From: Verrucomicrobiales bacterium
GTDB taxonomy: Bacteria; Verrucomicrobiota; Verrucomicrobiia; Verrucomicrobiales; DEV007
Direction of reading: 5' to 3'
Assembly (NCBI GenBank): GCA_041749135.1
Contig: JBGTBW010000146.1
Span: forward strand, 9,573-73,572
Length of the DNA stretch: 64,000 nucleotides
A program made the translations under genes and the position numbers. Position 1 is the first letter of the stretch. Every line of letters begins with the position of its first letter. Below the pieces are notes generated by a model. It was not told the DNA's origin and did not search any database. It was given only the letters and a program-made list of their open reading frames with translations. Shown one piece after another: positions 51,565 through 64,000 of this stretch.

Positions 51565-53187
51565 TCAATCGAGAAGCCGCAAGCGGTAGAACCGCTGCTG
51601 AACCACCGGCGAATCATGCGCGGTCGCCATGGCGCCCGCCCCGTTCACCTCGGGACCGAGCGGCAACCAGTCCCCCTCTGCCAAAACATCCAAGTATTCC
51701 GGTTGGTAGCGCTGCCCGGCGCTGGCGTCCCATTGCAGCGTCACCGTGTCGCCGGCGACGCTCAATTCAAGACTGAGAAGCGGCACAAACACGTTTGCAA
51801 AGATGTAATCCGCCACCTGCCGGCCTTGGGCGATTCCCTCCGTCTTATCGAAGGACCAATGGATGCCGAGGTAGATCCGGCTCTGGCCGTTTTCCTCCTC
51901 CGCCTGAGAAAGTGTTGAAAAGCTGCGCGGAATGAGCGGCCGCGTGTTGCCCTCACGGTCCAGCGTGATGCCGTTGTACTCGTCTGACACAAACGTGAAT
52001 GCGATGTCGTCGGTCCTGTAGAAGTTGCGCAGGGTCTGAAAGAGGGCGCCGCCGAATCCGGCGTGGCCTGAAGGGTAGGCGGGGAAAGGAGGCGTGAAGT
52101 TTGGGCTGGAGAGATTGCTGGCCGGCGCGCCCAACGGAGAAAACACCGGGTCGCCCTCTGTAGCCTCGTTGCCGTCGCCGGCCCCGGTTGGTCCGAAGCC
52201 CGGATCGGATTCCCGGATGCCGGTGACCGGTCTCCAGTAATCGTAGAAGTACTTGGATTCCCAAATCGCGATGCCGGAATCGGCCATCGCCACATTCACC
52301 AGAGCCAGAAGCCGCGCCAATCCGATGCCTTCCGTTCCCATTTGTGCGGCGATGTGGACGGCGATCTGATTGTAAAGCCGCGGCGGAGCGCACAGGCTGG
52401 GAGTTCCGTCGTAGGCCCAGTAGTTGCCGATTGCGGTTTGCTCCGGCAATCGCTCCGTGGGTGTCCCAAAACCGTCGCCGCCCAGGCGTTTTGCCTCGTC
52501 ATAGGCGGCCGCGTATTCGGCGCTGGTTAAGGCAGGCGGCGGCGGGACCCGAAACTGGGAAGAGGATTCCAGGACGAATGGAATGCATTCACCCCAATAG
52601 GCGCCCAGGGCGATCGGGATCAGACTAATGGGATCCTGACGCCAGCGGCCCGGTTGATCGCTCACCACATGCTCGATGGCCATCAGAGGTTCGGACTTAG
52701 CGGAACCGTCGTTGGATTTGAGGGTGAGAATCGCCGCGGCGGCCTGCTGCCCCAACTCAATCCCATTCGCCTTGGCCGGCTCCTCTGAGATCGTGCCCAG
52801 GTCCTCCTCAAGCCACACGCCAAAGTTCGCTGCTTGAGAGGGGAAGAGCACGATCAACGTGTCGTGGGCCGCCTGGCTGATCGCGGCTTCCAGAGACAGC
52901 AGCCCCGGAGCCGCTTGAATCCCAGTGTAACTCCGGTAGCCGCCTTTCGCCGCGACCATCGTGTCGAACATCGCGATATGGACGATGGCCATGGCCCGGC
53001 TCGACCGGCCGGGTCCAATCTGTTCGCCGAAGACGCGCTCCTCGTCGGGCGCAACAGGCGTGTGATCGAGGCCGCTGGCGTTGATGGCAATCTCATTCCA
53101 GCGGAGCAGCGTGTCAGTGCTGGCGAAAACCGCGCCGGGGAAAATCCCGAGAACCAGACTGACAATCAATATCGAGCAGGTTTTCAT
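51565..53187 (-). CDS. PAP2-superfamily / vanadium-dependent haloperoxidase-like secreted protein with the C-terminal FYR-type tail
   Basis: Signal peptide MKTCSILIVSLVLGIFPGAVFA. PAP2 signature blocks K(YFYDYW)RP, PSGHAGFGG, SRIYLGIHWSFD (KxxxxxxRP / PSGH / SRxxxxxHxxxD). Ends ...VTLQWDASAGQRYQPEYLDVLAEGDWLPLG...QQRFYRLRLLD. Confidence 0.75.
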   Translation of the reverse strand: MKTCSILIVSLVLGIFPGAVFASTDTLLRWNEIAINASGLDHTPVAPDEERVFGEQIGPGRSSRAMAIVHIAMFDTMVAAKGGYRSYTGIQAAPGLLSLEAAISQAAHDTLIVLFPSQAANFGVWLEEDLGTISEEPAKANGIELGQQAAAAILTLKSNDGSAKSEPLMAIEHVVSDQPGRWRQDPISLIPIALGAYWGECIPFVLESSSQFRVPPPPALTSAEYAAAYDEAKRLGGDGFGTPTERLPEQTAIGNYWAYDGTPSLCAPPRLYNQIAVHIAAQMGTEGIGLARLLALVNVAMADSGIAIWESKYFYDYWRPVTGIRESDPGFGPTGAGDGNEATEGDPVFSPLGAPASNLSSPNFTPPFPAYPSGHAGFGGALFQTLRNFYRTDDIAFTFVSDEYNGITLDREGNTRPLIPRSFSTLSQAEEENGQSRIYLGIHWSFDKTEGIAQGRQVADYIFANVFVPLLSLELSVAGDTVTLQWDASAGQRYQPEYLDVLAEGDWLPLGPEVNGAGAMATAHDSPVVQQRFYRLRLLD

Positions 53188-54850: not shown

Positions 54851-55029
54851 AATAAGGTGGTATGGCGATCAAAAGACTGGCCTGCTAGCGAAAGCGATCC
54901 CGAAAACCGGGTTTCAAACCACCACCGAGACAAAACTCACCTGACGATTTACGACGCGCCGAACAACGAACAATCAGTTCGATCTTAGATATCTTCGGCC
55001 ATTTCGCGAACTTCGCAAGGTCTATTTTC

Positions 55030-55760
55030 TCCCGCCGCCCCGCGGGAATCCCAGGCCAGAATGTAGCAGAAACTGCAAAGCTTCCGATGATTGGGCCACG
55101 GGTCGAGGAGAACGAGGCCTCCCCACGGGGATCCCGGAGGGCGAAAATGTAGCGGCACCTGCAAAGCTTCCGATGATTGGGCCACGGTTCGATGGGACTG
55201 GGCCTCCCCACGGGGATCCCGGAGGGCGAAAATGTAGCGGAAGCTGCAAAGCTTCCGATGATTGGGCCACGGGTCGATGAGAACTGGGCCTCCCCGCGGG
55301 ATCCCTGGCTGCGAGAATGTAGCGGAAGCTGCAAAGCTTCCGATGATTGGGCCACGGGTCGATGAGAACTGGGCCTCCCCACGGGAATCCCGGAGGGCGA
55401 AAATGTAGCGGAAGCTGCAAAGCTTCCGATGATTAGGTCACTGGTCGATGAGAACTGGCCCTCCCCACGGGGATCCCGGAGGGCGAAAATGTAGCGGAAG
55501 CTGCAAAGCTTCCGAGGATTGGGCCACGGTTCGATGAGAACGGGGCCGCGCCGCGGGAATCCCAGGCTGCCAGAATGTAGCGGAAGCTGCAAAGCTTCCG
55601 ATGATTGGGCCACGGGTCGATGAGAACGGGGCCTCCCCGCGGGATCCCTGAGGGCGAAATGTAGCGGAAGCTGCAAAGCTTCCGATGATTGGGCCACGGT
55701 TCGATGAGAACTGGGCCTCCCCGCGGGAATCCCAGGCTGCGAAAATGTAGTCGAGTAGAC
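55030..55760. repeat. Tandem array of about eight direct repeats of an 84-86-nt unit plus a partial ninth, each containing a 7-bp hairpin with a GCAA (GNRA) tetraloop
   Basis: Unit aatgtagcggaagctgcaaagcttccgatgattgggccacgggtcgatgagaactgggcctccccacggggatcccggagggcgaa recurs with the gcaaag anchor at 55075, 55161, 55246, 55331, 55417, 55503, 55589 and 55673. Contains ggaagct-gcaa-agcttcc and a second imperfect GC-rich hairpin (gcctcccc...ggagggc). Confidence 0.85.
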
Positions 55761-55981
55761 CGGGGCCTCCCAGGCCGCATCCTCGAATATCTCCTCCAGG
55801 ACAAGCTTCCGCCGTCCTCCCGCCGAACGCCGCCGTCCCTCCCTCAGCATCGCGCGATATCTCCCAGGTGGCGCTCCTTGGGACTCACCGCTGGAATTCT
55901 GAAACTCCGTTGCTCTTCCTTTTTGGTTGCAATCCCCGGTGGTTCGGCCTAGATCACCGCTCCCGTCGCTCTACGGGCTAA

Positions 55982-56067
55982 GGGTAGGTACCGAAGCGGT
56001 CAAACGGGGCAGACTGTAAATCTGCTGGCTTACGCCTTCAGTGGTTCGAATCCACTCCTGCCCACCA
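55982..56067 (+). tRNA. tRNA-Tyr: tRNA-Tyr (anticodon GUA), long variable arm, CCA encoded
   Basis: Manual cloverleaf: acceptor gggtagg/cctgccc, 3-bp D stem ccg/cgg, anticodon stem gcaga/tctgc with loop ctGTAaa, variable arm hairpin ggc-ttac-gcc, T arm agtgg-ttcgaat-ccact, discriminator A + CCA. 86 nt. Confidence 0.9.
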
Positions 56068-56095
56068 GCCTCATCCTAAGGCCCTGGCGACCCGT

Positions 56096-56171
56096 TGCAG
56101 GAGTGGGTTCGAACCACGGGGTGGTTTCGACTGCCGGTCTCGCGATGCGCAGCGAGCGGGACTTCTCCTGC
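56096..56171 (-). other. tRNA-like remnant on the opposite strand. Its 3' ~19 nt match the T-arm/acceptor 3' end of the adjacent tRNA-Tyr in inverted orientation.
   Basis: The minus strand reads ...gtgggttcgaacccactcctgc, 18/19 identical to tRNA-Tyr ggttcgaatccactcctgc. A ~76-nt segment has a pairing acceptor (gcaggag/ctcctgc) but no canonical D or anticodon arms. Confidence 0.25.
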
Positions 56172-57306
56172 TGCGCGAAGCGCACTCCGCAGAGCCCCGC
56201 CGCAGGCGGGGATAATCCAGCCCTGCCCACTTCCTTCAAAATGAAGGGCTTACACCGATGCTCACTCTATCAAGTGGCACCAGAAGCAAGAATCCTGCGG
56301 ACAATTTGCGGACAGTTTTGCGGTCAACCCTAGGACCACTTTCCTTCAACCGCACTCCCAGCGACACTGCGCCGATGGCCCCACTTGCCAACCGTTTCGC
56401 CATGCGAGTCCCGGAGATTCAGGTTGGGTAGGGTCAGGGCCTTCACGTGCCGATCGACGGTGAGCTGAGGACGACGATCCTGGCCTTCTTGGCCGTGTCA
56501 CCGGGAAGGCGCCTGGCACCTTCCGCCGGCGGGTGCTTCATGGGGGCGTCTGCCGGATCCTGGACGAGGGTGCCATGCAGAGACTGGCGATGGAGGATGT
56601 GGAGGAGGCTGGAATGTAATGAGAGGGGTGAGCCACCCTGAGACAATGGGCTTGCCATCAATCGAATTGCGTGATAGGCGGCGTTCATTTGAAAGGTATG
56701 ACCCCGTTGACGAACATCTCTACCTACTGTCCTGATGGAGGCACGCCCGTGCAGGCGGATGTTGTGGCAGATCTCACCAACCAAGGCCCGGGCGGCCCAT
56801 TCGCTTTTCGACCGCTTGGAGGACATCCAGAGCCAGGGACTCCCTTCAGCTTCTTCTCCAACGTGGAAATCGAGGCACCTCTGACCGGGACATTGCAGCA
56901 TATGGGGCAGAGCCATCGCGTCGAGATAGGAGAATGCGCTCCCTTTCAAGGACGATTCAGGGCTTCCGGCGAGATCATTCAATGAAATGAGTTCTGCGGA
57001 GGTCTGAGCATGCGGCCCATTCTGCCCTTCCGCCGCTCCCCGCGACACTGCGCCCGTGGTCACTCACTCCGACCGTTTCGCCCCGCGGAATCCGGAGCCG
57101 CAGCTTGGACGCGATCAGGTCTTGCTCGTTCTCGTCGACGGTGAACTCATGACGGTGATCTTCGCCTTGTCCGCGGGCCGCGACGCGACGGTCGGAGCTT
57201 TCTCGCGCGCTGTGCGACATGACAGTGTGCGCCGGATCTCGGAGAAATCCACTATGCGCAGGCTTGAGCCGACGTACATGGAGGCGGCGGGAGGGCGCCG
57301 ATAGCG

Positions 57307-57825
57307 ATGAGATGGCATCTTGCACAAGCAGCGTGGAGCGATGTTCCCAGTTGGCTGAGTACTCTCGGAACATGGATCGCTGCGATTGGGACTTGGATGG
57401 CTGCCGCGGGTGCTATCGCCGCGGCGATCGTTTATTACTTTCTTCTCCATGGAGAATTAAAGAAACGTCATGAAGAAGCTGAGGACAGCAGAAAGCTCGC
57501 GGCGAAGCGAACGTCCGCTTGGATGGAAGGCGATCGGTTAGTAGCACAAAACAGAGGGGAAGAGCCAATCTACAACGTGATAGTCTTTGTGGGAGAAATA
57601 GGCGACGACTTTGATGCTTCGATTGACAATCTTATCCGGTACCGGTTCTCATCGATCGGGCCCGACGACAGACGCGAACTACCGCTTAGAAAATCTATAG
57701 AACGCGGCACGATTCCCCGGGACCCAGACGTAGCGATCGAGTTTACAGACTGTTCGGGCCAGCATTGGCGTCGGGAGTCGAGCGGGGGACTCAAAGAAAT
57801 GCAGGTGCGGAGGCCCTGCGGTTGA
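57307..57825 (+). CDS. Small membrane-anchored hypothetical protein (N-terminal TM + ~120-aa soluble domain), in the low-GC island
   Basis: TM segment WLSTLGTWIAAIGTWMAAAGAIAAAIVYYFLL. AT-richer codon usage than the core genome. Confidence 0.4.
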   Translation: MRWHLAQAAWSDVPSWLSTLGTWIAAIGTWMAAAGAIAAAIVYYFLLHGELKKRHEEAEDSRKLAAKRTSAWMEGDRLVAQNRGEEPIYNVIVFVGEIGDDFDASIDNLIRYRFSSIGPDDRRELPLRKSIERGTIPRDPDVAIEFTDCSGQHWRRESSGGLKEMQVRRPCG

Positions 57826-57885
57826 CCCCTATGAGGTGGCTTCTCTAACCCCACTCTACGGAGAATTAAGATGCTTTAGTTACCA

Positions 57886-58365
57886 ATGTTGTTAGCCGTA
57901 ACTCCTTTTCTTTCTAGAGTCGGGGAGATCCTTGGCGCCCTTGTTTTCATTGTTGCACTATCCGCAACGGTATACGGGCTGTCGAAGTACATTGACTCGA
58001 GAATTAAGTCACTCTTTCTCCAGGACCGGGAGCTTTTGCGCAAAATCGCGCAGGCGGCTCGGCCGATTGCAATCTTCGATCAGAAGGGAACGGTTTTATA
58101 TGACGGTGGTGCTTCCGAATTCATAGAGTCGCTTTCAGTTAAACTAAACGAAGAACCAGGCAGTTTTGCTGAGGGCTTTCCTAAAGAGATTGTTATTAAG
58201 TCAAAACGATTTCTGCATAGTGCTCCACTCATAGTATCTATTGACCCTGATGATGTGGAGATCACGTCGCGCCGATCCGCCATGTCCGATTGGATTTACA
58301 GGTTGGAGTACAGTGGATATAGCACTCGAGAGGTAACAAGATTCCGAATCGAGATTCTTCGGTAA
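57886..58365 (+). CDS. Small membrane-anchored hypothetical protein (N-terminal TM + ~120-aa soluble domain), in the low-GC island
   Basis: TM segment ILGALVFIVALSATVYGL. Lies 60 nt downstream of the previous gene with the same architecture. Confidence 0.4.
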   Translation: MLLAVTPFLSRVGEILGALVFIVALSATVYGLSKYIDSRIKSLFLQDRELLRKIAQAARPIAIFDQKGTVLYDGGASEFIESLSVKLNEEPGSFAEGFPKEIVIKSKRFLHSAPLIVSIDPDDVEITSRRSAMSDWIYRLEYSGYSTREVTRFRIEILR

Positions 58366-58947
58366 CTAGCTGTTCGACTCTCTCAGGCTCCCTTCGAACC
58401 GTCGCCGAGCTGGACGCCCTGAAGCGTCTGCAAACAGAGACGGCCACAGAGTTCGAGCCCTGCTCCCCGACATCCTCGACTGCGCCTTCAAGGGCGGGCT
58501 TTGAACCCTCGCCTCGCCATGACCAACCCGATTCCCGGTTTCTGCGGGCTGGGTCTCGGCAAAAACCTTGGGGTTGGTGTGGAAGAGTGGCACAACATTG
58601 TGGCTGCATCTGGTAGGCTGAAGCGACCGATAAGAACCTGTCACCATGATCGAACATTGCAAGCTGCTTTGGGCTCTCAATGATCAAAAGCCAGGATTCC
58701 GAGGGGCATCGGCCGACGAGACTAACGAGATTGGATTCACGCCCGAAACGTCATGCATCCAGGTCGAACTCGAGCCCGAATCGCGGGCAGAACTTAATGC
58801 CTTGATCTTCGTTGAGATCGTAGAGCTTCGGATCCAATATGACCCGAAAGCCAATGCATGAGCCCCAGGATTGGGAAAAGAGGAAGGTATCGCTGTCGCC
58901 AAATTCGTTTACGCGGGCAATCGAACAGAGACGCGCCGAAAGACAGT

Positions 58948-59292
58948 CTATGACGAGTTGAATCGCAGCTTCCTGATCTCGAAGATATCAATGAGCCGTG
59001 AAGGCTCGATGTCCGTACTGGATCTTGAGACGAGTTCCTCAACGAACCCGTTCGCAATAAGGGCTTCAGTTGTACCACGATCTAGGTCATACAGTCGCTC
59101 CAGGATTCCTGTCTCAACGTTGAGTCGGCGCACGAGCCGCTGTGTGAACTGCTTAAGGTTGGACGGGCTCGACCATTCTAACCGAGATCTAGCGACTCGC
59201 CAGGTATCGTATAACGGACTTATCGCCGCAAGATCAATTTGTCTGTCTCGGTCGGAGATCTGCTCGATAGGGGTCCATCTATAGTCTGTCAT
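58948..59292 (-). CDS. Short ORF resembling the N-terminal region of Fic/DUF4172-type proteins, lacking the catalytic HPFx(D/E)GNGR core. Probable fragment.
   Basis: MTDYRWTPIEQISDRDRQIDLAAISPLYDTW...LDRGTTEALIANGFVEELVSRSSTDIEPS resembles the Fic N-terminal ...SSaIEG region. The ORF ends ~15 aa later and no HPF motif follows on this strand. Confidence 0.3.
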   Translation of the reverse strand: MTDYRWTPIEQISDRDRQIDLAAISPLYDTWRVARSRLEWSSPSNLKQFTQRLVRRLNVETGILERLYDLDRGTTEALIANGFVEELVSRSSTDIEPSRLIDIFEIRKLRFNSS

Positions 59293-60255
59293 CGATTGAC
59301 CTCGATCTAAGGAATTGAATTCTCCTAACCTTTCATCACAACTGCTGAACAGCTTAGGCTTGGCTCCGTGTCGAAGAACGCGTGGCGGCCGGCGTGTATG
59401 ACGGGCAAATGTCACCGGAGGGAGACTCGTCGTTGAGCTGCGGAGATTGAACCATGGGGTAGTTATGATGAGGGGAGCCGAGAAGGCAAACGTTCCGTTG
59501 GCCGGAAAGCAGTCACGCGAACAGGCCGAGCCTGCGGGGATCGGATGATCAGGAAAGCCTGAGGAGGCTGGAAGGAGTCTCCTGAATCCGGGTTGGCAGC
59601 TGCCGTTAAGTTGGGCGTGGAGGTTTCGTGAAGGATTGTGGCGATCCTTGGACCCGGAGCGTGCGCATCGGCGCTTCTTTTGCGGTTTCGTTCTTTCCTT
59701 GAGTTCCCATCCTCGGGCGGCTTGGCGCATGGAGAGTACGATGGGGTTGAACTCGGGTCGGGCCCGCCCGCGCACACGGAAACCGCGCTTGAGCAACAGG
59801 ACGCGCCCCCGATTCACAGGCCGGATCCTTAGCTAATTCACTCTCGGATTCTGCTGAAGAACGCTTATTGAGCGCTCGGGAGCGGGCGCATGCGGCGGAG
59901 CCTCGTCGAGCCGTCTGCTCCTGCTCCGGAAAGGCGCTAATCACCCTGAAATTTATCTTGCTCCGCCGCAAGAAAGCTGTTGAGGTAAGCGGAAATGAGC
60001 TGTGATGGCCAGTCCGCATCCCTTCCCTCTCCTAAACCGCAGGCGGTAAGGCCAGGCTTTTGGAAGGGAATTCCTGGCCCCTTAAAGAGGTTCAAGTAGT
60101 GATCGAGGTCGCTTACGCTAAAAGAGCGTGCTCAAGGTTCGCAATCACCACGGATACTCGACCGAGCCTGCTACTTCGCGCCATGGCAAGATGGTTTTCT
60201 CTAGGCACGCTCTCTCGACAGCGTCGGCACAAAAAAAAACTCACCGACTAAGACT

Positions 60256-62193
60256 ATGAGTTCCAATCGGGCTTCATCAAGAGATGCCGAATCTGCTGAC
60301 CTATTCGATCAAACGGTGAACCCACTTCTACCCGGCGGTATTCTTGTTTCGATGTTCAGGGACCCTAAAAGCCTAGATACGCTCCACTATGAAATCGATT
60401 CACTAGCCGCCTTTAACACCAACAAAAACAATACTCTCGTCCGCCACTTCCAAAGCCACGGCTACTTGGAAACGCGGCTAGCGACGACCCTCATATCCGC
60501 TTTAACGGACTTCGAAGGTACGCTTCAAGGTTCCGAGCCAAGTCTTTCACTTCGATCTCAGATGTTCGGCTACGATTCCGGTGCGGCACACACAATTTTC
60601 CGCAGTCTTCTCGCCATAAACACATTTGTTCATGTCTTGCAGATAATTACTCCGCCGCCGAAAACCTATCTCAGAGCGGAGTCCCTTGATATTGATGTTT
60701 TGGAGCTTATCAAAGACAGCGCTTTGGACTTTGCGGCTGGAATGTGGTGTAAACTTATTCGGCCCAATCAGGGAGTGGCACGCTGTTGGGGGACGCGGCA
60801 GCTTTGGCGAGCGGCCTTTTCGGAAGACCCACAAGATTGCCTCAGCGCGATTGAAGACGGCGTGGAGATTGCTGAACGGGATGGCCTTTACGCTTTACAA
60901 GAACTGTTAGTCAGTAGTGATGAGTTTGCGGAAGGATTACGCGAATCCTACGAAATAAACGATCGCTTACTGAGCCAGGGGATAGACGAACAGTTTCGCC
61001 GGATCGGGCTGGGGTGCAAATCTTTGGGTCTCCGGCCCGTTTGTTTCTGGTATGTTCGCCACCTTTTAGATCAAAGTATGTGGGCATACGCGCAGATCGA
61101 CGGCAATACTTCCCACGCAGACAATCGCTTTTGCCAAACCCTTTCCGAGCGAACACGGCGTATAGCAGAGGAGTATGCTCAAGAGTGCGAACAGGAACAG
61201 CAGGCTGGAACGCTTCAAGAAGAGGATTTTGACACTGTTCTTGCGGAGTTGGATGAGCTAATCGGCCTTGAGTCTGTTAAAGTAAGGCTGCGGGAGTTGG
61301 CCAACTTCGCGAGAGTTCAACAGATGCGGGTATCACAGGGTCTCCCCAGCGTCAAAACGAACCTTCATACGGTGTATTCCGGAAACCCAGGAACCGGAAA
61401 GACCACGGTCGCCCGCTTTATGGGTAGGATCTATAAGTCATTGGGCATTCTCCGAAAAGGCCATGTTATTGAGTGCGACCGATCAAAACTCGTCGCAGAA
61501 TACATCGGGCAGACCGCAACGAAGACGAGTGAGGTTATTGACTCAGCGCTTGATGGCATATTGTTCGTTGATGAGGCTTATACTTTAGCCGGAAGGCATG
61601 AGTGGGACTTCGGGCGGGAAGCTATTGATACGCTTCTCAAGCGGATGGAAGACGATCGCAATCGATTGATTGTAATTGTTGCCGGTTATGTCGGCCAAAT
61701 GCAGACGTTCATTTTCTCAAATCCAGGATTGCAGTCGCGTTTTACTAATTATGTGGATTTCCCGGATTACACCCCTCAGGAGATGTGTAGGATATTCACT
61801 TTTTTGGCGCGGCAAGCCGGTCTGGAGTGTGCGGCAGAACTGAAAGCAAAGCTACTCCTCCATTTCAGTCTTGCATATCGAGATCGTGCAAAACACTTCG
61901 GAAATGGGAGGGAAGTAAGAAACGTTTTCGAAGCCACTATCAGTCGCCAAGCTAATCGGTTGGCTGGCGTAGGCGATTTCACCGCTGACGCGCTCACTCT
62001 ATTAATCGCGACCGATCTCGCTTCGTCTTATGAGGAGGAGTTTGAGGCAGCGAGAAAGGAGTTGTCGTTCATATGCAGGTGCCCGGCTTGTCAACGTTCC
62101 TACGCATGGCATCCTGCTTCCGACCTCAAGCTAGCACAGTGCGACTGCGGAAAATTGTTTGACGTAGAGTTTGGCGAAGTCGCACTGGAGTAA
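60256..62193 (+). CDS. 645-aa protein: unknown ~330-aa N-terminal domain + CbbX/SpoVK-type AAA+ ATPase + C-terminal Cys4 zinc-ribbon
   Basis: Lower-GC gene preceded by an A9 run. Walker A GNPGTGKTTVARFMG, Walker B GILFVDEAYTL, sensor-1 IVIVAGY, arginine finger region GLQSRF (CbbX/SpoVK hallmark LxxLxxFxxxQ...GNPGTGKT). C-terminal CRCPACQ...CDCGKLF. Confidence 0.8.
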   Translation: MSSNRASSRDAESADLFDQTVNPLLPGGILVSMFRDPKSLDTLHYEIDSLAAFNTNKNNTLVRHFQSHGYLETRLATTLISALTDFEGTLQGSEPSLSLRSQMFGYDSGAAHTIFRSLLAINTFVHVLQIITPPPKTYLRAESLDIDVLELIKDSALDFAAGMWCKLIRPNQGVARCWGTRQLWRAAFSEDPQDCLSAIEDGVEIAERDGLYALQELLVSSDEFAEGLRESYEINDRLLSQGIDEQFRRIGLGCKSLGLRPVCFWYVRHLLDQSMWAYAQIDGNTSHADNRFCQTLSERTRRIAEEYAQECEQEQQAGTLQEEDFDTVLAELDELIGLESVKVRLRELANFARVQQMRVSQGLPSVKTNLHTVYSGNPGTGKTTVARFMGRIYKSLGILRKGHVIECDRSKLVAEYIGQTATKTSEVIDSALDGILFVDEAYTLAGRHEWDFGREAIDTLLKRMEDDRNRLIVIVAGYVGQMQTFIFSNPGLQSRFTNYVDFPDYTPQEMCRIFTFLARQAGLECAAELKAKLLLHFSLAYRDRAKHFGNGREVRNVFEATISRQANRLAGVGDFTADALTLLIATDLASSYEEEFEAARKELSFICRCPACQRSYAWHPASDLKLAQCDCGKLFDVEFGEVALE

Positions 62194-63616
62194 TTCGACA
62201 TGTCCCCACCCCCTGTCCCCACCAGCCAAGCTACGAAATAGGATCGGCATTGGCCCCAATTCCCGGAAGGTCTGGGCTAAGGAGTGTCGCCGCCGTCCCT
62301 CCGTATCCTTGCAAACCGGCTCCGCTCCGGTCCCGATGCCGTCAGCCGGTTCCACCTCAGCTCAATCACGACGTCATGCTCCTCAGCGCGGCCACCAAGC
62401 CATCGGCTACGTCGATTGGCTGCGACTCGTGAAGATCCTCGACGAGTGCTTCCTCGCAGATACGGAACATCCAGACCATGCACCGATCATGGATCGGGTC
62501 TGCACCGCTGACCTCGTCAGCGCCCACTTCCCGGTCTGTCCCGCGCGCATTCCCAGATGGCCGCTGCGCTGGTGGCGCCGGTTGAACCAAACGCTGTAGC
62601 TGACGTTCAACCACTGAGCGCTCCGGCTGAGGTTCGCCTCCGGGGTCTCCAGGAGGAGATGAACATGGTTGCGGGTTCATGCCGCTGCTCTGCGAGTTCA
62701 CAATGCCTGTGTCTTTGTGTGAAGCGTTTGGTGTTGAACGCAGGGACCGCTTGTTGGATCTGCTCGCCTTCCTCTCTACTCTCAACGATCCGTACAGGGT
62801 TCTTGAGGGCTGTCGATTTCCCGCAGAAGATGCCCAAAGACAAGGGGCATAGGACACGCTAGACTCGCCCACGGGGCCCTTTGAACGAAAAGAAAGTCTC
62901 AGACCGCCATCCGATCCAGATCAACGCTTGGCACGATAGCTACAGCGTCATTGGAGCCTTTCGGCCGGTAGTTCCAAAGACTGTGGAATTCTCCACCGTT
63001 CCAGCGGGATTTGATGCTTCTCGTCATAGTCCTGGCATTTCCTCGTCCATGAGTGCCACCTCGGTCCTCGCTCGAAGCGGAGTGCGATTAACCGGGCTTC
63101 ATCAGAGCACCGCCTTCGAGCCAAATGCCCGAGCCGATTCCAATTCCCCACCGCTCCCTATAGATATCGCGGGAAACGGAAACGGGAAACAGCCCTGAAT
63201 GAGCCCCTTGCCTGGGTGGAAGATAGGGCTCTGCGGGGACGCAACCCGAGCGCTGCCCAGGCCTTGCACACCGAAGGACCCTGCAGGGCCCTTGCCGGGT
63301 GGGGCCGCTCAAGTGGTCTCACCCGGCTCCTCCTGCGGGAGCAAGCCCAATGCGATAAATCCATCATTTACCCTGACCACCGTCCCATCGCTTACCGTGT
63401 CCACGCTCAACCGCGCACATCAACCCGCTATCCGCCAGGCATCCAAAGCTGAATGACAACTCGAATCCTGAATCAGAAACCGGAGGGGCGCTCCCGGTAG
63501 CGGGTGAGTGGCCTCGACGTTAGGCGTTTTCTCACGCCCCGTATGAACGGACAATTTACAATCTTATTACAAATTTCTGACAAACCTGCGCAGCCAGCCG
63601 CCTCACACTTGAAGCC

Positions 63617-64000
63617 ATGAAACTACTTCGACATATCATCACCATTGTTAGCATTGTCGCCTCTTTTATCGCTAACGCAGGCGAACAACTCACCGCCAAA
63701 ACGAAAGGCGCTGCAGATCAACCAACCGCTGTAGAACTGCAACTTCTCCAAGGAACATGGGAGGGAGTCCTAGTGGGCGATAAGGCGCAAAACAAAATCA
63801 CCATCACGATCACCGGCAATTCACTCCATTTTCATCGGGACACGAATTTTTGGTTTGAGACGACAATTACACTGACAGCAGGCAAAGACCCAAAGCAGTT
63901 ACACGCCACCATCAAACATTCTGCGCCACCGGAGGATTCCAACGGCCAAGTGGTCGTCGCCATCTTCAAGATTGAGGACGGAACATTGACCTTGGCCACG
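63617..64000 (+). CDS. Secreted TIGR03067-like (Planctomycetes-type lipocalin-like) protein, 3' end beyond window
   Basis: Signal peptide MKLLRHIITIVSIVASFIANA. LQGTWEGV...ITITGNSLHF...AIFKIEDGTLTL matches the TIGR03067 pattern (LxGtW...gdkl...GIYkldgdtLtl). The ORF runs off the window end. Confidence 0.6.
   Translation, partial: MKLLRHIITIVSIVASFIANAGEQLTAKTKGAADQPTAVELQLLQGTWEGVLVGDKAQNKITITITGNSLHFHRDTNFWFETTITLTAGKDPKQLHATIKHSAPPEDSNGQVVVAIFKIEDGTLTLAT

What the first reader, a model, noticed from the sequence alone, without database searches (positions are those of the whole stretch)
55982..63600. Lower-GC island beyond tRNA-Tyr carrying a CbbX/SpoVK-type AAA+ ATPase with a novel N-domain and a zinc ribbon, plus small membrane proteins and a Fic-like fragment
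Downstream of tRNA-Tyr the composition becomes visibly more AT-rich. Immediately after the tRNA lies an inverted 19-nt copy of its T-arm/acceptor 3' end (56106-56126, opposite strand), compatible with past site-specific recombination at this tRNA. The island encodes two tandem TM-anchored small proteins and a truncated Fic/DUF4172-like ORF. It also encodes a 645-aa protein joining an uncharacterised 330-aa N-terminal domain to a CbbX/SpoVK AAA+ core and a C-terminal Cys4 ribbon. Single large ATPases of this kind in tRNA-linked islands are frequent components of anti-phage or abortive-infection systems. No integrase is visible within the window.
Basis: partly seen in the sequence, partly recalled or inferred. 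Interest (0 to 1): 0.55.

Follow-up and report, generated by a model that had tools for sequence, protein, structure and literature searches.

The report
Acquired island carrying an orphan AAA+ ATPase
Next to a tRNA-Tyr gene lies a foreign, partly decayed stretch of DNA whose one large intact gene encodes a rare, self-contained protein-remodelling ATPase with a previously undescribed front domain; a relative sits in a phage genome, and its biological role is still unknown.

Summary
After tRNA-Tyr (55982-56067), GC falls from 0.635 to 0.545. GC3 falls from 0.73-0.76 in host genes to 0.47-0.58. The step is at about 57.3 kb, not at the tRNA. A 21-nt inverted copy (56097-56117) and a 17-nt direct copy (56214-56230) of the tRNA 3' end both exceed chance. 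The "Fic-like fragment" is real: a frameshifted, truncated pseudogene keeping about 120 N-terminal codons. No integrase is detectable.

The 645-aa ORF is intact. It has a roughly 320-aa all-helical N-domain with no Pfam, PDB or viral-structure match, a CbbX/SpoVK/EccA-clade AAA+ core with its catalytic and pore-loop residues, and a Cys4 ribbon. It is not an orthologue of CbbX, SpoVK or EccA. The N-domain is rare: 59 clusters among 1.84 billion proteins, nearly always fused to this core.

Eight family loci share no neighbouring gene. One relative (56% identity) lies inside a phage genome.

Most likely this is a mobile, stand-alone, substrate-specific remodelling ATPase. A defence role is possible but untested: PADLOC gives only generic AAA hits.

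The parts
55982..56067 (+). tRNA-Tyr (anticodon GTA). This is the left landmark of the segment.
   Evidence: ARAGORN; Rfam tRNA 56.8 bits.
56097..56117 (-). Inverted copy (20 of 21 nt) of the tRNA T-arm plus the first 6 nt of the 3' acceptor strand (56041-56061).
   Evidence: the repeat finder pair I2. Pattern search finds 1 extra match against 0 expected in shuffles. As RNA it could pair with the tRNA 3' half.
56214..56230 (+). Direct partial copy (15 of 17 nt) of the tRNA 3' end (56049-56065). It may be an att-like relic.
   Evidence: the repeat finder family D10. Pattern search expects 0.02 matches by chance, and 0 of 100 shuffles reach 2 matches. No longer copy exists anywhere in the window.
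56443..57048 (-). ORF of 201 aa with no detectable family. Its GC is host-like (0.60), so it lies before the compositional step.
   Evidence: Called on the identical Logan contig. No Pfam, PADLOC, NCBIfam or PHROG hit. Composition.
57307..57825 (+). ORF of 172 aa with one N-terminal hydrophobic (membrane-anchor-like) segment. The low-GC block begins here.
   Evidence: Hydropathy maximum 1.99 at residue 24. GC3 0.54. Only a weak phrog_22307 match, E 1.8e-4.
57886..58365 (+). ORF of 159 aa with one N-terminal hydrophobic segment. It is unrelated in sequence to the 172-aa ORF.
   Evidence: Hydropathy maximum 2.14 at residue 15. GC3 0.47. No similarity to its neighbour. No family hit.
58934..59292 (-). 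Frameshifted, truncated pseudogene of a Fic-domain protein family. Only about 120 N-terminal codons remain, and the Fic core (HPFxxGNGR) is missing.
   Evidence: 128 homologues, up to 78% identical. They continue into Fic-type sequence. The Corallococcus homologue is followed 10 nt later by a PF02661 Fic ORF carrying HPYQDGNGR. tblastn shows homology in one frame over 59292-58981, then in a second frame over 58984-58934, then none.
60256..61209 (+). ATPase residues 1-318: an all-alpha N-terminal domain with no known relatives outside this family. It is the presumed substrate- or adaptor-recruiting module.
61210..62067 (+). ATPase residues about 319-604: a single classical AAA+ module of the SpoVK/CbbX/EccA clade plus AAA_lid_6. 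It has Walker A GNPGTGKT (K382), Walker B D439-E440, pore loop Y416-I-G418, the G477-Y478 signature, R495 (equivalent to CbbX R194) and sensor-2 R552/R555.
   Evidence: Pfam AAA and AAA_lid_6. NCBIfam SpoVK 1e-82, CbbX 1e-70 and EccA 1e-70, all below their cut-offs. End-to-end alignment to CbbX 3syk/3zuh, E 4e-59. Invariant columns.
62068..62193 (+). ATPase residues about 605-645: a C-terminal Cys4 zinc-ribbon-like module (C609, C612, C629, C631) and the stop codon.
   Evidence: All four Cys, plus W618, F635, E638 and G640, are invariant in 7 full-length homologues. AF2 predicts short beta-strands here with pLDDT 71-89. A relative, P0124, scores weakly to Zn_ribbon_Elf1.
62194..63617 (.). Stretch with overlapping, unconvincing ORFs and mixed GC (0.55-0.63). 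No family is detectable, so it may be further decayed sequence.
   Evidence: ORF list. Pfam, PADLOC, NCBIfam and PHROG scans are negative for 62171-62599 and 62366-62872. tblastn with integrase and transposases is negative.

Best explanation
The segment from about 57.3 kb to at least 63.6 kb, next to tRNA-Tyr, is horizontally acquired accessory DNA that is now decaying. It holds a frameshifted Fic-family stub, ORFans, and no integrase.

Its one large intact gene (60256-62193) encodes a stand-alone member of a rare, previously undescribed subfamily of the SpoVK/CbbX/EccA clade of classical AAA+ ATPases.

Proposed mechanism (inferred by analogy with CbbX, SpoVK and EccA): the protein assembles into a hexameric ring. 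The family-specific helical N-domain, possibly helped by the C-terminal zinc ribbon, recruits one dedicated target. ATP hydrolysis drives the Tyr416 pore loop to pull on and remodel that target, rather than degrade it.

The gene travels alone as a single-gene cassette between genomes, including phage genomes. Its target is therefore probably something that matters in mobile-element/host biology, but which side it serves is not known.

Shown: the composition shift, the tRNA-end copies, the pseudogene, the domain architecture, the intact motifs, the rarity, the lack of conserved neighbours, and the phage-borne homologue.

Inferred: hexamer formation, target recruitment by the N-domain, remodelling activity, and any role in conflict.
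For: - Foreign composition: GC 0.545 against 0.635. ATPase GC3 is 0.52 against 0.73-0.76 for host genes.
- tRNA adjacency, with two non-random copies of the tRNA 3' end.
- Decay: the Fic-family gene is reduced to about 120 frameshifted codons, and the neighbouring ORFs have no family.
- The ATPase is intact and colinear with 6 homologues of 50-70% identity. The Walker A/B motifs, the Y-I-G pore loop, the GY signature, R495, the sensor-2 arginines and the four Cys are all invariant.
- The core aligns over all of CbbX at E 4e-59.
- The clade signatures follow PMC11513918. That paper also reports that characterised members of the clade act on narrow, dedicated targets recruited by variable N-domains, and that the clade shows no protease partners.
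- N-domain: a confident model (pLDDT 89) with no fold or sequence relative. There are 59 clusters in 1.84e9 proteins, and 25 of the 27 longer hits scanned carry AAA plus AAA_lid_6.
- Stand-alone and mobile: 8 family loci share no neighbour at E<1e-3. Gene GC differs from its flanks in 7 of 8 loci.
- The homologue P0004 sits between ParB-like and other early-type genes of a phage that has small and large terminase, an M15 peptidase, MazG and ThyA.
Against: - There is no experimental or contextual clue to the target.
- The AAA+ core of the full-length AF2 model is poorly predicted (pLDDT below 50 over 369-479), and no oligomer was modelled.
- The position equivalent to CbbX R192 is Q493 here (Q or K across the family), so ATPase kinetics may differ from CbbX.
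- No integrase, no distal att repeat and no island-free relative genome were found, so the mode of acquisition and the island's right-hand boundary are unknown. The window ends at 64000 while GC is still low.
- Only one of the eight loci is demonstrably phage.
- The GenBank phage and IMG/VR collections hold only matches to the AAA core.
Confidence: 0.55

Rival explanations
1. Single-gene anti-phage or abortive-infection factor. The N-domain or zinc ribbon senses a phage component, and the AAA+ ring then unfolds or inactivates an essential phage or host protein.
For: - It lies in a foreign, tRNA-adjacent variable region beside a Fic-family (toxin-type) relic.
- It is a stand-alone gene with patchy, rare distribution and a composition unlike its flanks.
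- A homologue is carried by a phage; from general knowledge, prophages often carry defence genes as cargo.
- SpoVK-family ATPases have been noted as add-ons to CoCoNuT restriction operons (PMC11090510).
Against: - PADLOC matches are weak and limited to the generic P-loop region: IetA 2.4e-6, TRIP13 2.5e-6, and NCBIfam IteA 17 bits against a cut-off of 510.
- There is no effector domain (nuclease, protease, pore, NADase) in the protein or in a conserved neighbour.
- None of the ORFs scanned around the gene in this window matches a defence model; the other family loci were not scanned with PADLOC.
- According to PMC11513918, the characterised members of this clade act as narrow-target chaperones.
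Confidence: 0.2
2. A gene serving the phage itself, left behind by a degraded prophage or brought in as phage cargo. The ATPase would act as a dedicated chaperone for phage assembly or replication, or would remodel a host protein (host takeover or anti-defence).
For: - The 56%-identical homologue lies in a phage genome, co-oriented with ParB-like and glucosyltransferase-like genes and divergent from the terminase block.
- SpoVK-type AAA modules occur in Bacillus phage G, Mycobacterium phage Adler and Brevibacillus phage Emery and in phrog_4339 (1.8e-31).
- The 172-aa neighbour matches a PHROG weakly.
- The island shows decay, as an old prophage remnant would.
Against: - There are no phage structural, terminase, integrase or repressor remnants in 56-64 kb.
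- Even inside the phage the gene has aberrant GC (0.50 against 0.62), which suggests cargo rather than core phage machinery.
- Full-length family members are absent from GenBank phages and IMG/VR.
- Other family loci look chromosomal: metal-efflux-like genes and guanylate cyclases.
Confidence: 0.2
3. A housekeeping chaperone of the host: a CbbX-type RuBisCO activase, an EccA-type secretion ATPase, or a SpoVK-type envelope-enzyme activator. It would simply happen to lie in a low-GC patch.
For: The AAA+ core is 40-45% identical to CbbX and scores 1e-70 to 1e-82 against the SpoVK, CbbX and EccA models.
Against: - All three equivalog cut-offs are missed by a wide margin: 274 against 423, 235 against 459, and 235 against 467.
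- There are no RuBisCO or T7SS genes nearby; the scanned neighbours have no Pfam family.
- The host looks like a Planctomycete, not a sporulating Bacillota.
- GC3 of 0.52 against 0.75 is not core-like.
- The family is extremely rare, has no fixed genomic context, and has a phage-borne member.
Confidence: 0.05

Closest known systems
CbbX (red-type RuBisCO activase; PDB 3syl/3zuh)
   Same: The single AAA+ module plus lid aligns over essentially the whole of CbbX at E 4e-59. It shares Walker A K (CbbX K80 / here K382), the pore-loop Tyr (Y114 / Y416), the GY signature, the arginine at R194 / R495 and the sensor-2 arginines. It probably works as a hexameric, substrate-specific remodeller.
   Different: A 320-aa helical N-domain and a C-terminal Cys4 ribbon are added. 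The R192 equivalent is Gln. It falls below the TIGR02880 cut-off (235 against 459). There is no RuBisCO context, its composition is foreign, and it has a phage-borne relative.
SpoVK (Bacillus sporulation AAA+ that promotes MurG activity; PMC11513918)
   Same: It is the best-scoring NCBIfam model (1e-82). It belongs to the same higher-order clade and shares the logic of a variable N-terminal module recruiting a narrow target, with no protease partner.
   Different: SpoVK has a short NTD of about 40 residues (three beta-strands and one alpha-helix) and is restricted to sporulating Bacillota. Here the N-domain is about 320 aa and all-alpha, the host is Planctomycete-like, and the score is below the cut-off (274 against 423).
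EccA (type VII secretion cytosolic AAA+; PDB 9lur)
   Same: It has a comparably long N-terminal helical domain followed by one CbbX-like AAA+ module. NCBIfam EccA scores 1e-70 and the PDB EccA1 match is 1.8e-48.
   Different: The EccA N-domain is TPR plus beta-helix (as stated in PMC11513918). This N-domain matches no TPR model or structure. No T7SS genes lie nearby, and the score is below the cut-off (235 against 467).
IetA / IteA (AAA+ ATPase of the IetAS anti-phage system)
   Same: It is an AAA+ P-loop protein found in variable regions. PADLOC's best matches are to it, though they are weak (2.4e-6).
   Different: The match covers only part of each IetA profile (positions 43-187 of 330 and 95-194 of 374, around the P-loop). 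NCBIfam IteA scores 17 bits against a cut-off of 510. No IetS-like protease partner is present.
tRNA-linked genomic islands or prophage remnants
   Same: It lies immediately downstream of a tRNA gene, has foreign composition, carries partial copies of the tRNA 3' end, and holds a pseudogene and ORFan cargo.
   Different: No integrase was found, and no distal direct repeat lies within the window. The best repeat is inverted. The composition step lies 1.2 kb beyond the tRNA.

Membership tests
SpoVK/CbbX/EccA higher-order clade of classical AAA+ ATPases | A single classical AAA+ module with AAA_lid_6 that is significantly similar to CbbX, SpoVK and EccA. | tested here: met
   Pfam AAA 4.5e-15 and AAA_lid_6 9.6e-17. 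NCBIfam 1e-70 to 1e-82. PDB CbbX 1.6e-58 and EccA1 1.8e-48.
SpoVK/CbbX/EccA higher-order clade of classical AAA+ ATPases | [quoted passage not shown] | tested here: inconclusive
   G477-Y478, N489 and R552/R555 are invariant. However, the residue 4 positions after N489 is Q493 (Q or K in the family), not Arg. The Arg 6 positions after it (R495, equivalent to CbbX R194) is invariant.
CbbX (RuBisCO activase, TIGR02880) | The score reaches the equivalog cut-off. | tested here: not met
   235 bits against a cut-off of 459.25.
CbbX (RuBisCO activase, TIGR02880) | Encoded alongside red-type RuBisCO genes, and about 300 aa long with no large extra domains (from established knowledge). | tested here: not met
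   The protein is 645 aa with added N- and C-terminal domains. The scanned ORFs across 56-63 kb have no Pfam family, so no RuBisCO gene was found.
SpoVK (TIGR02881) | The score reaches the equivalog cut-off, the organism is a sporulating Bacillota, and the protein has the short beta-rich NTD. | tested here: not met
   274 bits against a cut-off of 422.95. The host carries PSCyt2, PSD1 and DUF1501 genes, typical of Planctomycetes. The N-domain is 320 aa and all-alpha.
EccA (TIGR03922) | The score reaches the equivalog cut-off, the N-domain is TPR, and the gene sits in a T7SS locus. | tested here: not met
   235 bits against a cut-off of 466.65. No TPR hit in the N-domain even at E<=10. The scanned neighbours match no Pfam family, so no T7SS component was found.
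IetAS / other PADLOC defence systems | A significant, full-length match to a defence-system model, together with the system's partner gene(s). | tested here: not met
   The best matches are IetA 2.4e-6 and TRIP13 2.5e-6, and each covers only part of its profile. The five other island ORFs scanned give no PADLOC hit. NCBIfam IteA scores 17 bits against 510.
Integrase-mediated tRNA-linked genomic island | It lies directly beyond the 3' end of a tRNA gene and has deviating composition. | tested here: met
   The step is about 1.2 kb beyond the tRNA.
Integrase-mediated tRNA-linked genomic island | A tyrosine or serine recombinase gene lies at one end. | tested here: not met
   There are no recombinase hits in Pfam, NCBIfam or PHROG scans of the island ORFs, or by tblastn with one integrase and three transposases. 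The island may continue beyond the window.
Integrase-mediated tRNA-linked genomic island | Direct repeats of the tRNA 3' end bracket the island. | tested here: inconclusive
   The only direct copy is 15/17 and lies 165 nt downstream. There is no distal copy up to 64000. The stronger copy is inverted.
Integrase-mediated tRNA-linked genomic island | The island is absent from the same site in related genomes. | not testable with these tools
   No closely related genome is in the collection. The family scan found nothing. The anchor-gene scan returned only homologues of 63-74% identity from many phyla, with no synteny.
Fic-domain proteins (PF02661), for the ORF at 58934-59292 | Homology to a family whose members carry the Fic core motif HPFx[D/E]GN[G/K]R. 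| tested here: met
   It is 62% identical to Corallococcus P0250, whose adjoining ORF is PF02661 with HPYQDGNGR. The family profile's top PDB hit is the Fic protein 3cuc, though at a non-significant E of 0.27.
Fic-domain proteins (PF02661), for the ORF at 58934-59292 | The Fic core itself is present, meaning a functional gene. | tested here: not met
   Homology stops after about 120 codons, with one frameshift. tblastn with the Fic-core ORF finds nothing in the island. There is no Pfam hit.

The most novel reading that the evidence does not exclude
The family would be the first example of a SpoVK/CbbX/EccA-clade ATPase acting in phage-host conflict. It would be a single-gene, phage-transmissible module whose structurally novel N-domain recognises a specific viral or host protein, which the AAA+ ring then forcibly remodels. 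It could serve either as host immunity or superinfection exclusion, or as a phage counter-defence.
Probability: 0.2. Interest if true: 0.6.

Novelty: new variant of a known kind. Interest (0 to 1): 0.38.

Why it matters
According to the one clade survey read here (PMC11513918), the characterised members of the SpoVK/CbbX/EccA clade each act on a narrow target or in one cellular context (RuBisCO, MurG, T7SS substrates). That paper argues that the variable N-domain of these proteins recruits the target.

This family adds a confidently modelled N-domain of about 320 residues with no known structural or sequence relative. It also adds a zinc ribbon and a lifestyle not reported for the characterised members in that survey: a lone, horizontally mobile gene, seen once inside a phage genome.

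If its target were found, it would extend the clade's repertoire. It might also reveal a new kind of conflict or host-manipulation factor.

The island itself (tRNA-adjacent, low GC, decaying) is ordinary.

Tried and rejected
- **Synteny test.** The N-domain query found no relative. The PAP2-like anchor gene turned out to be a widely transferred gene with 63-74% identical copies in many phyla and no shared neighbours. Whether the island is absent from relatives therefore remains untested.
- **Conserved partner search.** All-against-all BLASTP of every ORF of at least 50 aa in 8 family loci found nothing shared apart from the ATPase. This rejects the idea that the two membrane-anchored ORFs form a system with the ATPase.
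- **Phage collections.** GenBank phages and IMG/VR hold only matches to the AAA core. The neighbours in L007 and L008 have no PHROG hits.
- **Fic fragment.** Direct Pfam, PDB and plasmid searches were all negative. Only the homologue search plus a homologue's genomic context resolved it.
- **Integrase or transposase relics.** tblastn with four mobile-element proteins was negative.
- **Promoter and terminator scan.** It was uninformative, with counts at or below shuffle expectation.
- **Literature.** I found no paper linking this clade's stand-alone members to defence. The only mention is of SpoVK-like add-ons in CoCoNuT operons.

Full report
**1. The observation**

ARAGORN and Rfam place a single tRNA-Tyr(GTA) at 55982-56067(+).

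Composition shifts downstream of it. One-kb windows average GC 0.635 (sd 0.031, minimum 0.570) over 1-56 kb. Over 56.5-63 kb they average 0.545 (sd 0.032, maximum 0.598). The contrast is sharper at third codon positions:
- Host genes (PSD1/PSCyt2, DUF1501, WD40, PAP2-like, TPMT-like) have GC3 0.73-0.76. The short RRM gene has 0.66.
- ORFs from 57.3 kb onward have GC3 0.47-0.58, and the 645-aa ORF has 0.52.

The step lies at about 57.3 kb, roughly 1.2 kb beyond the tRNA. The low-GC block is patchy, with stretches of 0.61-0.63 at 59.6-59.9, 62.3-62.6 and 63.2-63.5 kb. GC is still low where the window ends.

The inverted copy of the tRNA T-arm and acceptor end exists, but at 56097-56117 rather than 56106-56126. 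It is 21 nt with one mismatch, and no such match occurs in shuffled sequence. I also found a direct 15/17 copy of the tRNA 3' end at 56214-56230, where 0.02 matches are expected by chance. No longer copy exists anywhere in the window.

A Logan contig from run SRR28170463 is 100% identical to 56179-62583.

**2. The cargo other than the ATPase**

The two tandem ORFs 57307-57825 (172 aa) and 57886-58365 (159 aa) each have one N-terminal hydrophobic segment above the usual membrane threshold. They are unrelated to each other. They have no Pfam, NCBIfam or PADLOC family, and only the first has a weak PHROG match (E 1.8e-4).

The "Fic-like" ORF gave nothing in Pfam even at E<=10, nothing in the PDB and nothing in plasmids. 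A homologue search with its last 114 residues nevertheless returned 128 proteins, up to 78% identical.
- Aligned, these continue into sequence typical of the region just before a Fic core.
- In Corallococcus the 184-aa homologue is followed 10 nt later by an ORF with PF02661 and the motif HPYQDGNGR.
- In another homologue's locus the gene is cut by an IS3-type element, beside an integrase and an IS66 element.
- tblastn shows that the window copy matches these proteins over 59292-58981. It then continues in a different frame over 58984-58934 (14/17 identical to P0190), after which the homology stops. The Fic-core ORF finds nothing in the island.

This is a frameshifted stub retaining about 120 codons of a Fic-family gene.

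No recombinase or transposase relic was detected. The 62.2-63.6 kb stretch holds only overlapping, unconvincing ORFs.

**3. The ATPase**

ORF 60256-62193 is intact. It is colinear end to end with six metagenomic homologues of 50-70% identity.

*Core (residues about 327-590).* It matches Pfam AAA and AAA_lid_6. It aligns over virtually the whole of CbbX at E 4e-59, and to EccA1. NCBIfam scores are SpoVK 274 bits, CbbX 235 and EccA 235. All are far below the equivalog cut-offs of 423, 459 and 467. It therefore belongs to the clade but is not an orthologue of any characterised member.

Using the CbbX alignment and the family alignment, the following residues are invariant:
- Walker A GNPGTGKT (K382, equivalent to CbbX K80)
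- Walker B D439-E440
- the pore-loop Y416-I-G418 (equivalent to CbbX Y114)
- the G477-Y478 signature
- N489
- R495 (equivalent to CbbX R194)
- the sensor-2 arginines R552 and R555

That K80, Y114 and R194 are the experimentally probed CbbX residues is from my memory of the CbbX literature, not from a tool result. The clade signatures themselves are listed in PMC11513918.

There is one deviation. The position equivalent to CbbX R192, four residues after the conserved Asn, is Q493 here and Q or K across the family.

*C-terminus.* C609, C612, C629 and C631 are invariant, along with W618, F635, E638 and G640. AF2 models this region as short beta-strands. This supports a Cys4 zinc ribbon.

*N-domain (residues 1 to about 318).* AF2 gives a confident all-alpha model (pLDDT 89, pTM 0.89).
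- Foldseek against the PDB and against viral predicted structures finds nothing at E<=0.001, and TM-scores stay at or below 0.23.
- Pfam at E<=10 and a PDB profile search are empty.

A profile of the domain was searched exhaustively against 1.84 billion representative proteins. It found only 59 clusters, 40 of them below 1e-10. Of the 27 longer proteins scanned, 25 carry AAA plus AAA_lid_6 after the domain. A few add a further N-terminal module: FtsK_gamma in two, GYF_2 in one, and extra zinc ribbons in one. One protein has bPH_3 and no AAA module.

The domain is thus a dedicated appendage of this ATPase core.

**4. Context across the family**

I compared eight loci: the window, L002/L005, L006, L007, L008, L091, L092 and L093. 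All-against-all BLASTP of every ORF of at least 50 aa outside the ATPase found no shared neighbour at E<1e-3. The gene therefore travels alone, and the two membrane-anchored ORFs are not part of a conserved system with it.

The homologue P0004 (56% identity) lies in a phage genome recovered on 15 contigs. Its neighbours include the following:
- small terminase (phrog_57) and large terminase (GpA)
- an HTH_3 regulator
- a ParB-like protein
- a glucosyltransferase-like protein
- an M15 peptidase
- MazG and thymidylate synthase

Other loci look chromosomal (guanylate cyclases, metal-efflux-like genes) or consist of ORFans.

In 7 of the 8 loci the gene's GC differs from its flanks, including inside the phage (0.50 against 0.62).

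Full-length members are absent from GenBank phages and IMG/VR, which hold only matches to the AAA core.

**5. Interpretation**

The best-supported reading has three parts.

(a) The 57.3 to beyond 63.6 kb block is horizontally acquired and decaying. It sits next to a tRNA gene that bears scars (the extra tRNA-end copies) compatible with past recombination. How it was acquired is unproven. Integration by a tyrosine recombinase leaves direct repeats, not inverted ones. The only direct copy is short and lies close to the tRNA. No integrase is present in the window.

(b) The ATPase is a functional-looking, stand-alone member of a new subfamily of the SpoVK/CbbX/EccA clade. By analogy with CbbX, SpoVK and EccA (PMC11513918), it should form a hexamer. 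It should use its private N-domain, and perhaps the zinc ribbon, to recruit one dedicated target, and remodel that target through the Tyr pore loop. That paper found no peptidase fusions or associations in this clade, and none was seen in the family here.

(c) Its mobility and its phage-borne relative suggest a role in mobile-element/host biology, but the direction is unknown.

- PADLOC and NCBIfam matches to IetA/IteA and TRIP13 are weak and partial.
- No effector domain and no conserved partner is present.
- The only literature link found is a note that SpoVK-like ATPases occur as add-ons in CoCoNuT restriction operons (PMC11090510).

A housekeeping role (RuBisCO activase, T7SS, sporulation) is effectively excluded by the model cut-offs, the context, the host type and the codon composition.

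**6. What could not be done**

No closely related genome was available. The family scan found none, and the anchor gene I chose turned out to be promiscuously transferred. The test of whether the island is absent from relatives is therefore open.

The window ends inside the low-GC region, so the right-hand boundary is unknown.

The AlphaFold-database fold library was not available.

The AAA core of the full-length model is poorly predicted from the shallow alignment, and no oligomer was modelled.

**7. Verdict**

The island is ordinary.

The ATPase is a new architectural variant of a known AAA+ clade. It is rare, mobile, once seen in a phage, and carries a structurally novel N-domain. Its function is unknown.

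Interest is moderate (0.38). It would rise if a conflict role or a specific target were shown.

Noticed in passing
window 55034-55750: An 86-nt tandem repeat of 8.4 copies (87% matches) lies immediately upstream of tRNA-Tyr. The 321-aa ORF 54885-55850(-) that spans it has no Pfam family and is probably an artefact of the repeat. The function of the array is unknown.
   Followed up: partly
window 56147-56176 and 56195-56211: Two GC-rich hairpins (GCGCAGC...GCTGCGC and CCCCGCC-GCA-GGCGGGG) sit between the inverted and the direct copies of the tRNA 3' end. They may be terminators for the tRNA or for the convergent 201-aa ORF. The simple terminator scan did not report them, because no T-run follows.
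   Followed up: no
window 55982-56135: As RNA, the tRNA 3' half could pair with the inverted copy in a long hairpin (MFE -71.2 kcal/mol, z -3.7). In a read-through transcript this would compete with the tRNA cloverleaf.
   Followed up: partly
window 56179-62583 (= L001): A Logan contig from SRR28170463 is 100% identical to exactly this span. Its ends fall just after the tRNA-end copies and inside a GC-richer patch downstream of the ATPase. These may be assembly breakpoints caused by repeats or population variation at the island's edges.
   Followed up: no
window 51565-53187 (-): The PAP2/vanadium-haloperoxidase-like gene has homologues of 63-74% identity in MAGs labelled Verrucomicrobiota, Acidobacteriota, Nitrospirota, Myxococcota, Proteobacteria and others. 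There is no shared synteny. The gene is apparently transferred widely.
   Followed up: partly
family loci L002, L006, L007, L008, L091, L093: The ATPase gene's GC differs from that of its flanks in 7 of 8 loci. It is lower by 5-12 points in the close subfamily, including inside the phage, and higher in two distant members.
   Followed up: partly
proteins P0136, P0145, P0159, P0141, P0124: Some family members carry an extra N-terminal module ahead of the novel domain: FtsK_gamma (a DNA-binding winged helix, from general knowledge), GYF_2, bPH_3 (this one lacks the AAA core) or zinc ribbons. This hints that different members are directed to different places, DNA included.
   Followed up: partly
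window 61732-61740 (ATPase residues 493-495): In the conserved NPGLxSRF motif, the residue aligned with CbbX R192 is Gln (Q or K in the family). The R194 equivalent is invariant. This is a departure from the clade's usual R-S-R pair.
   Followed up: partly
L172/L173 (homologue of the Fic stub): Another copy of the Fic-family gene is truncated by an IS3-type insertion. It lies beside a tyrosine integrase and an IS66 transposase. This gene family is thus recurrently found broken in mobile regions.
   Followed up: no
window 63618-64000 (+): An ORF starting MKLLRHIITIVSIVASF... has a signal-peptide-like start and runs off the end of the window. Its GC is still low (0.49), so the foreign block may extend beyond the window.
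   Followed up: no
window about 1-23 kb versus 23-45 kb: The window's background GC is not uniform. It is about 0.64-0.70 in the first 22 kb and about 0.57-0.63 over 23-42 kb, which suggests further mosaicism upstream.
   Followed up: no
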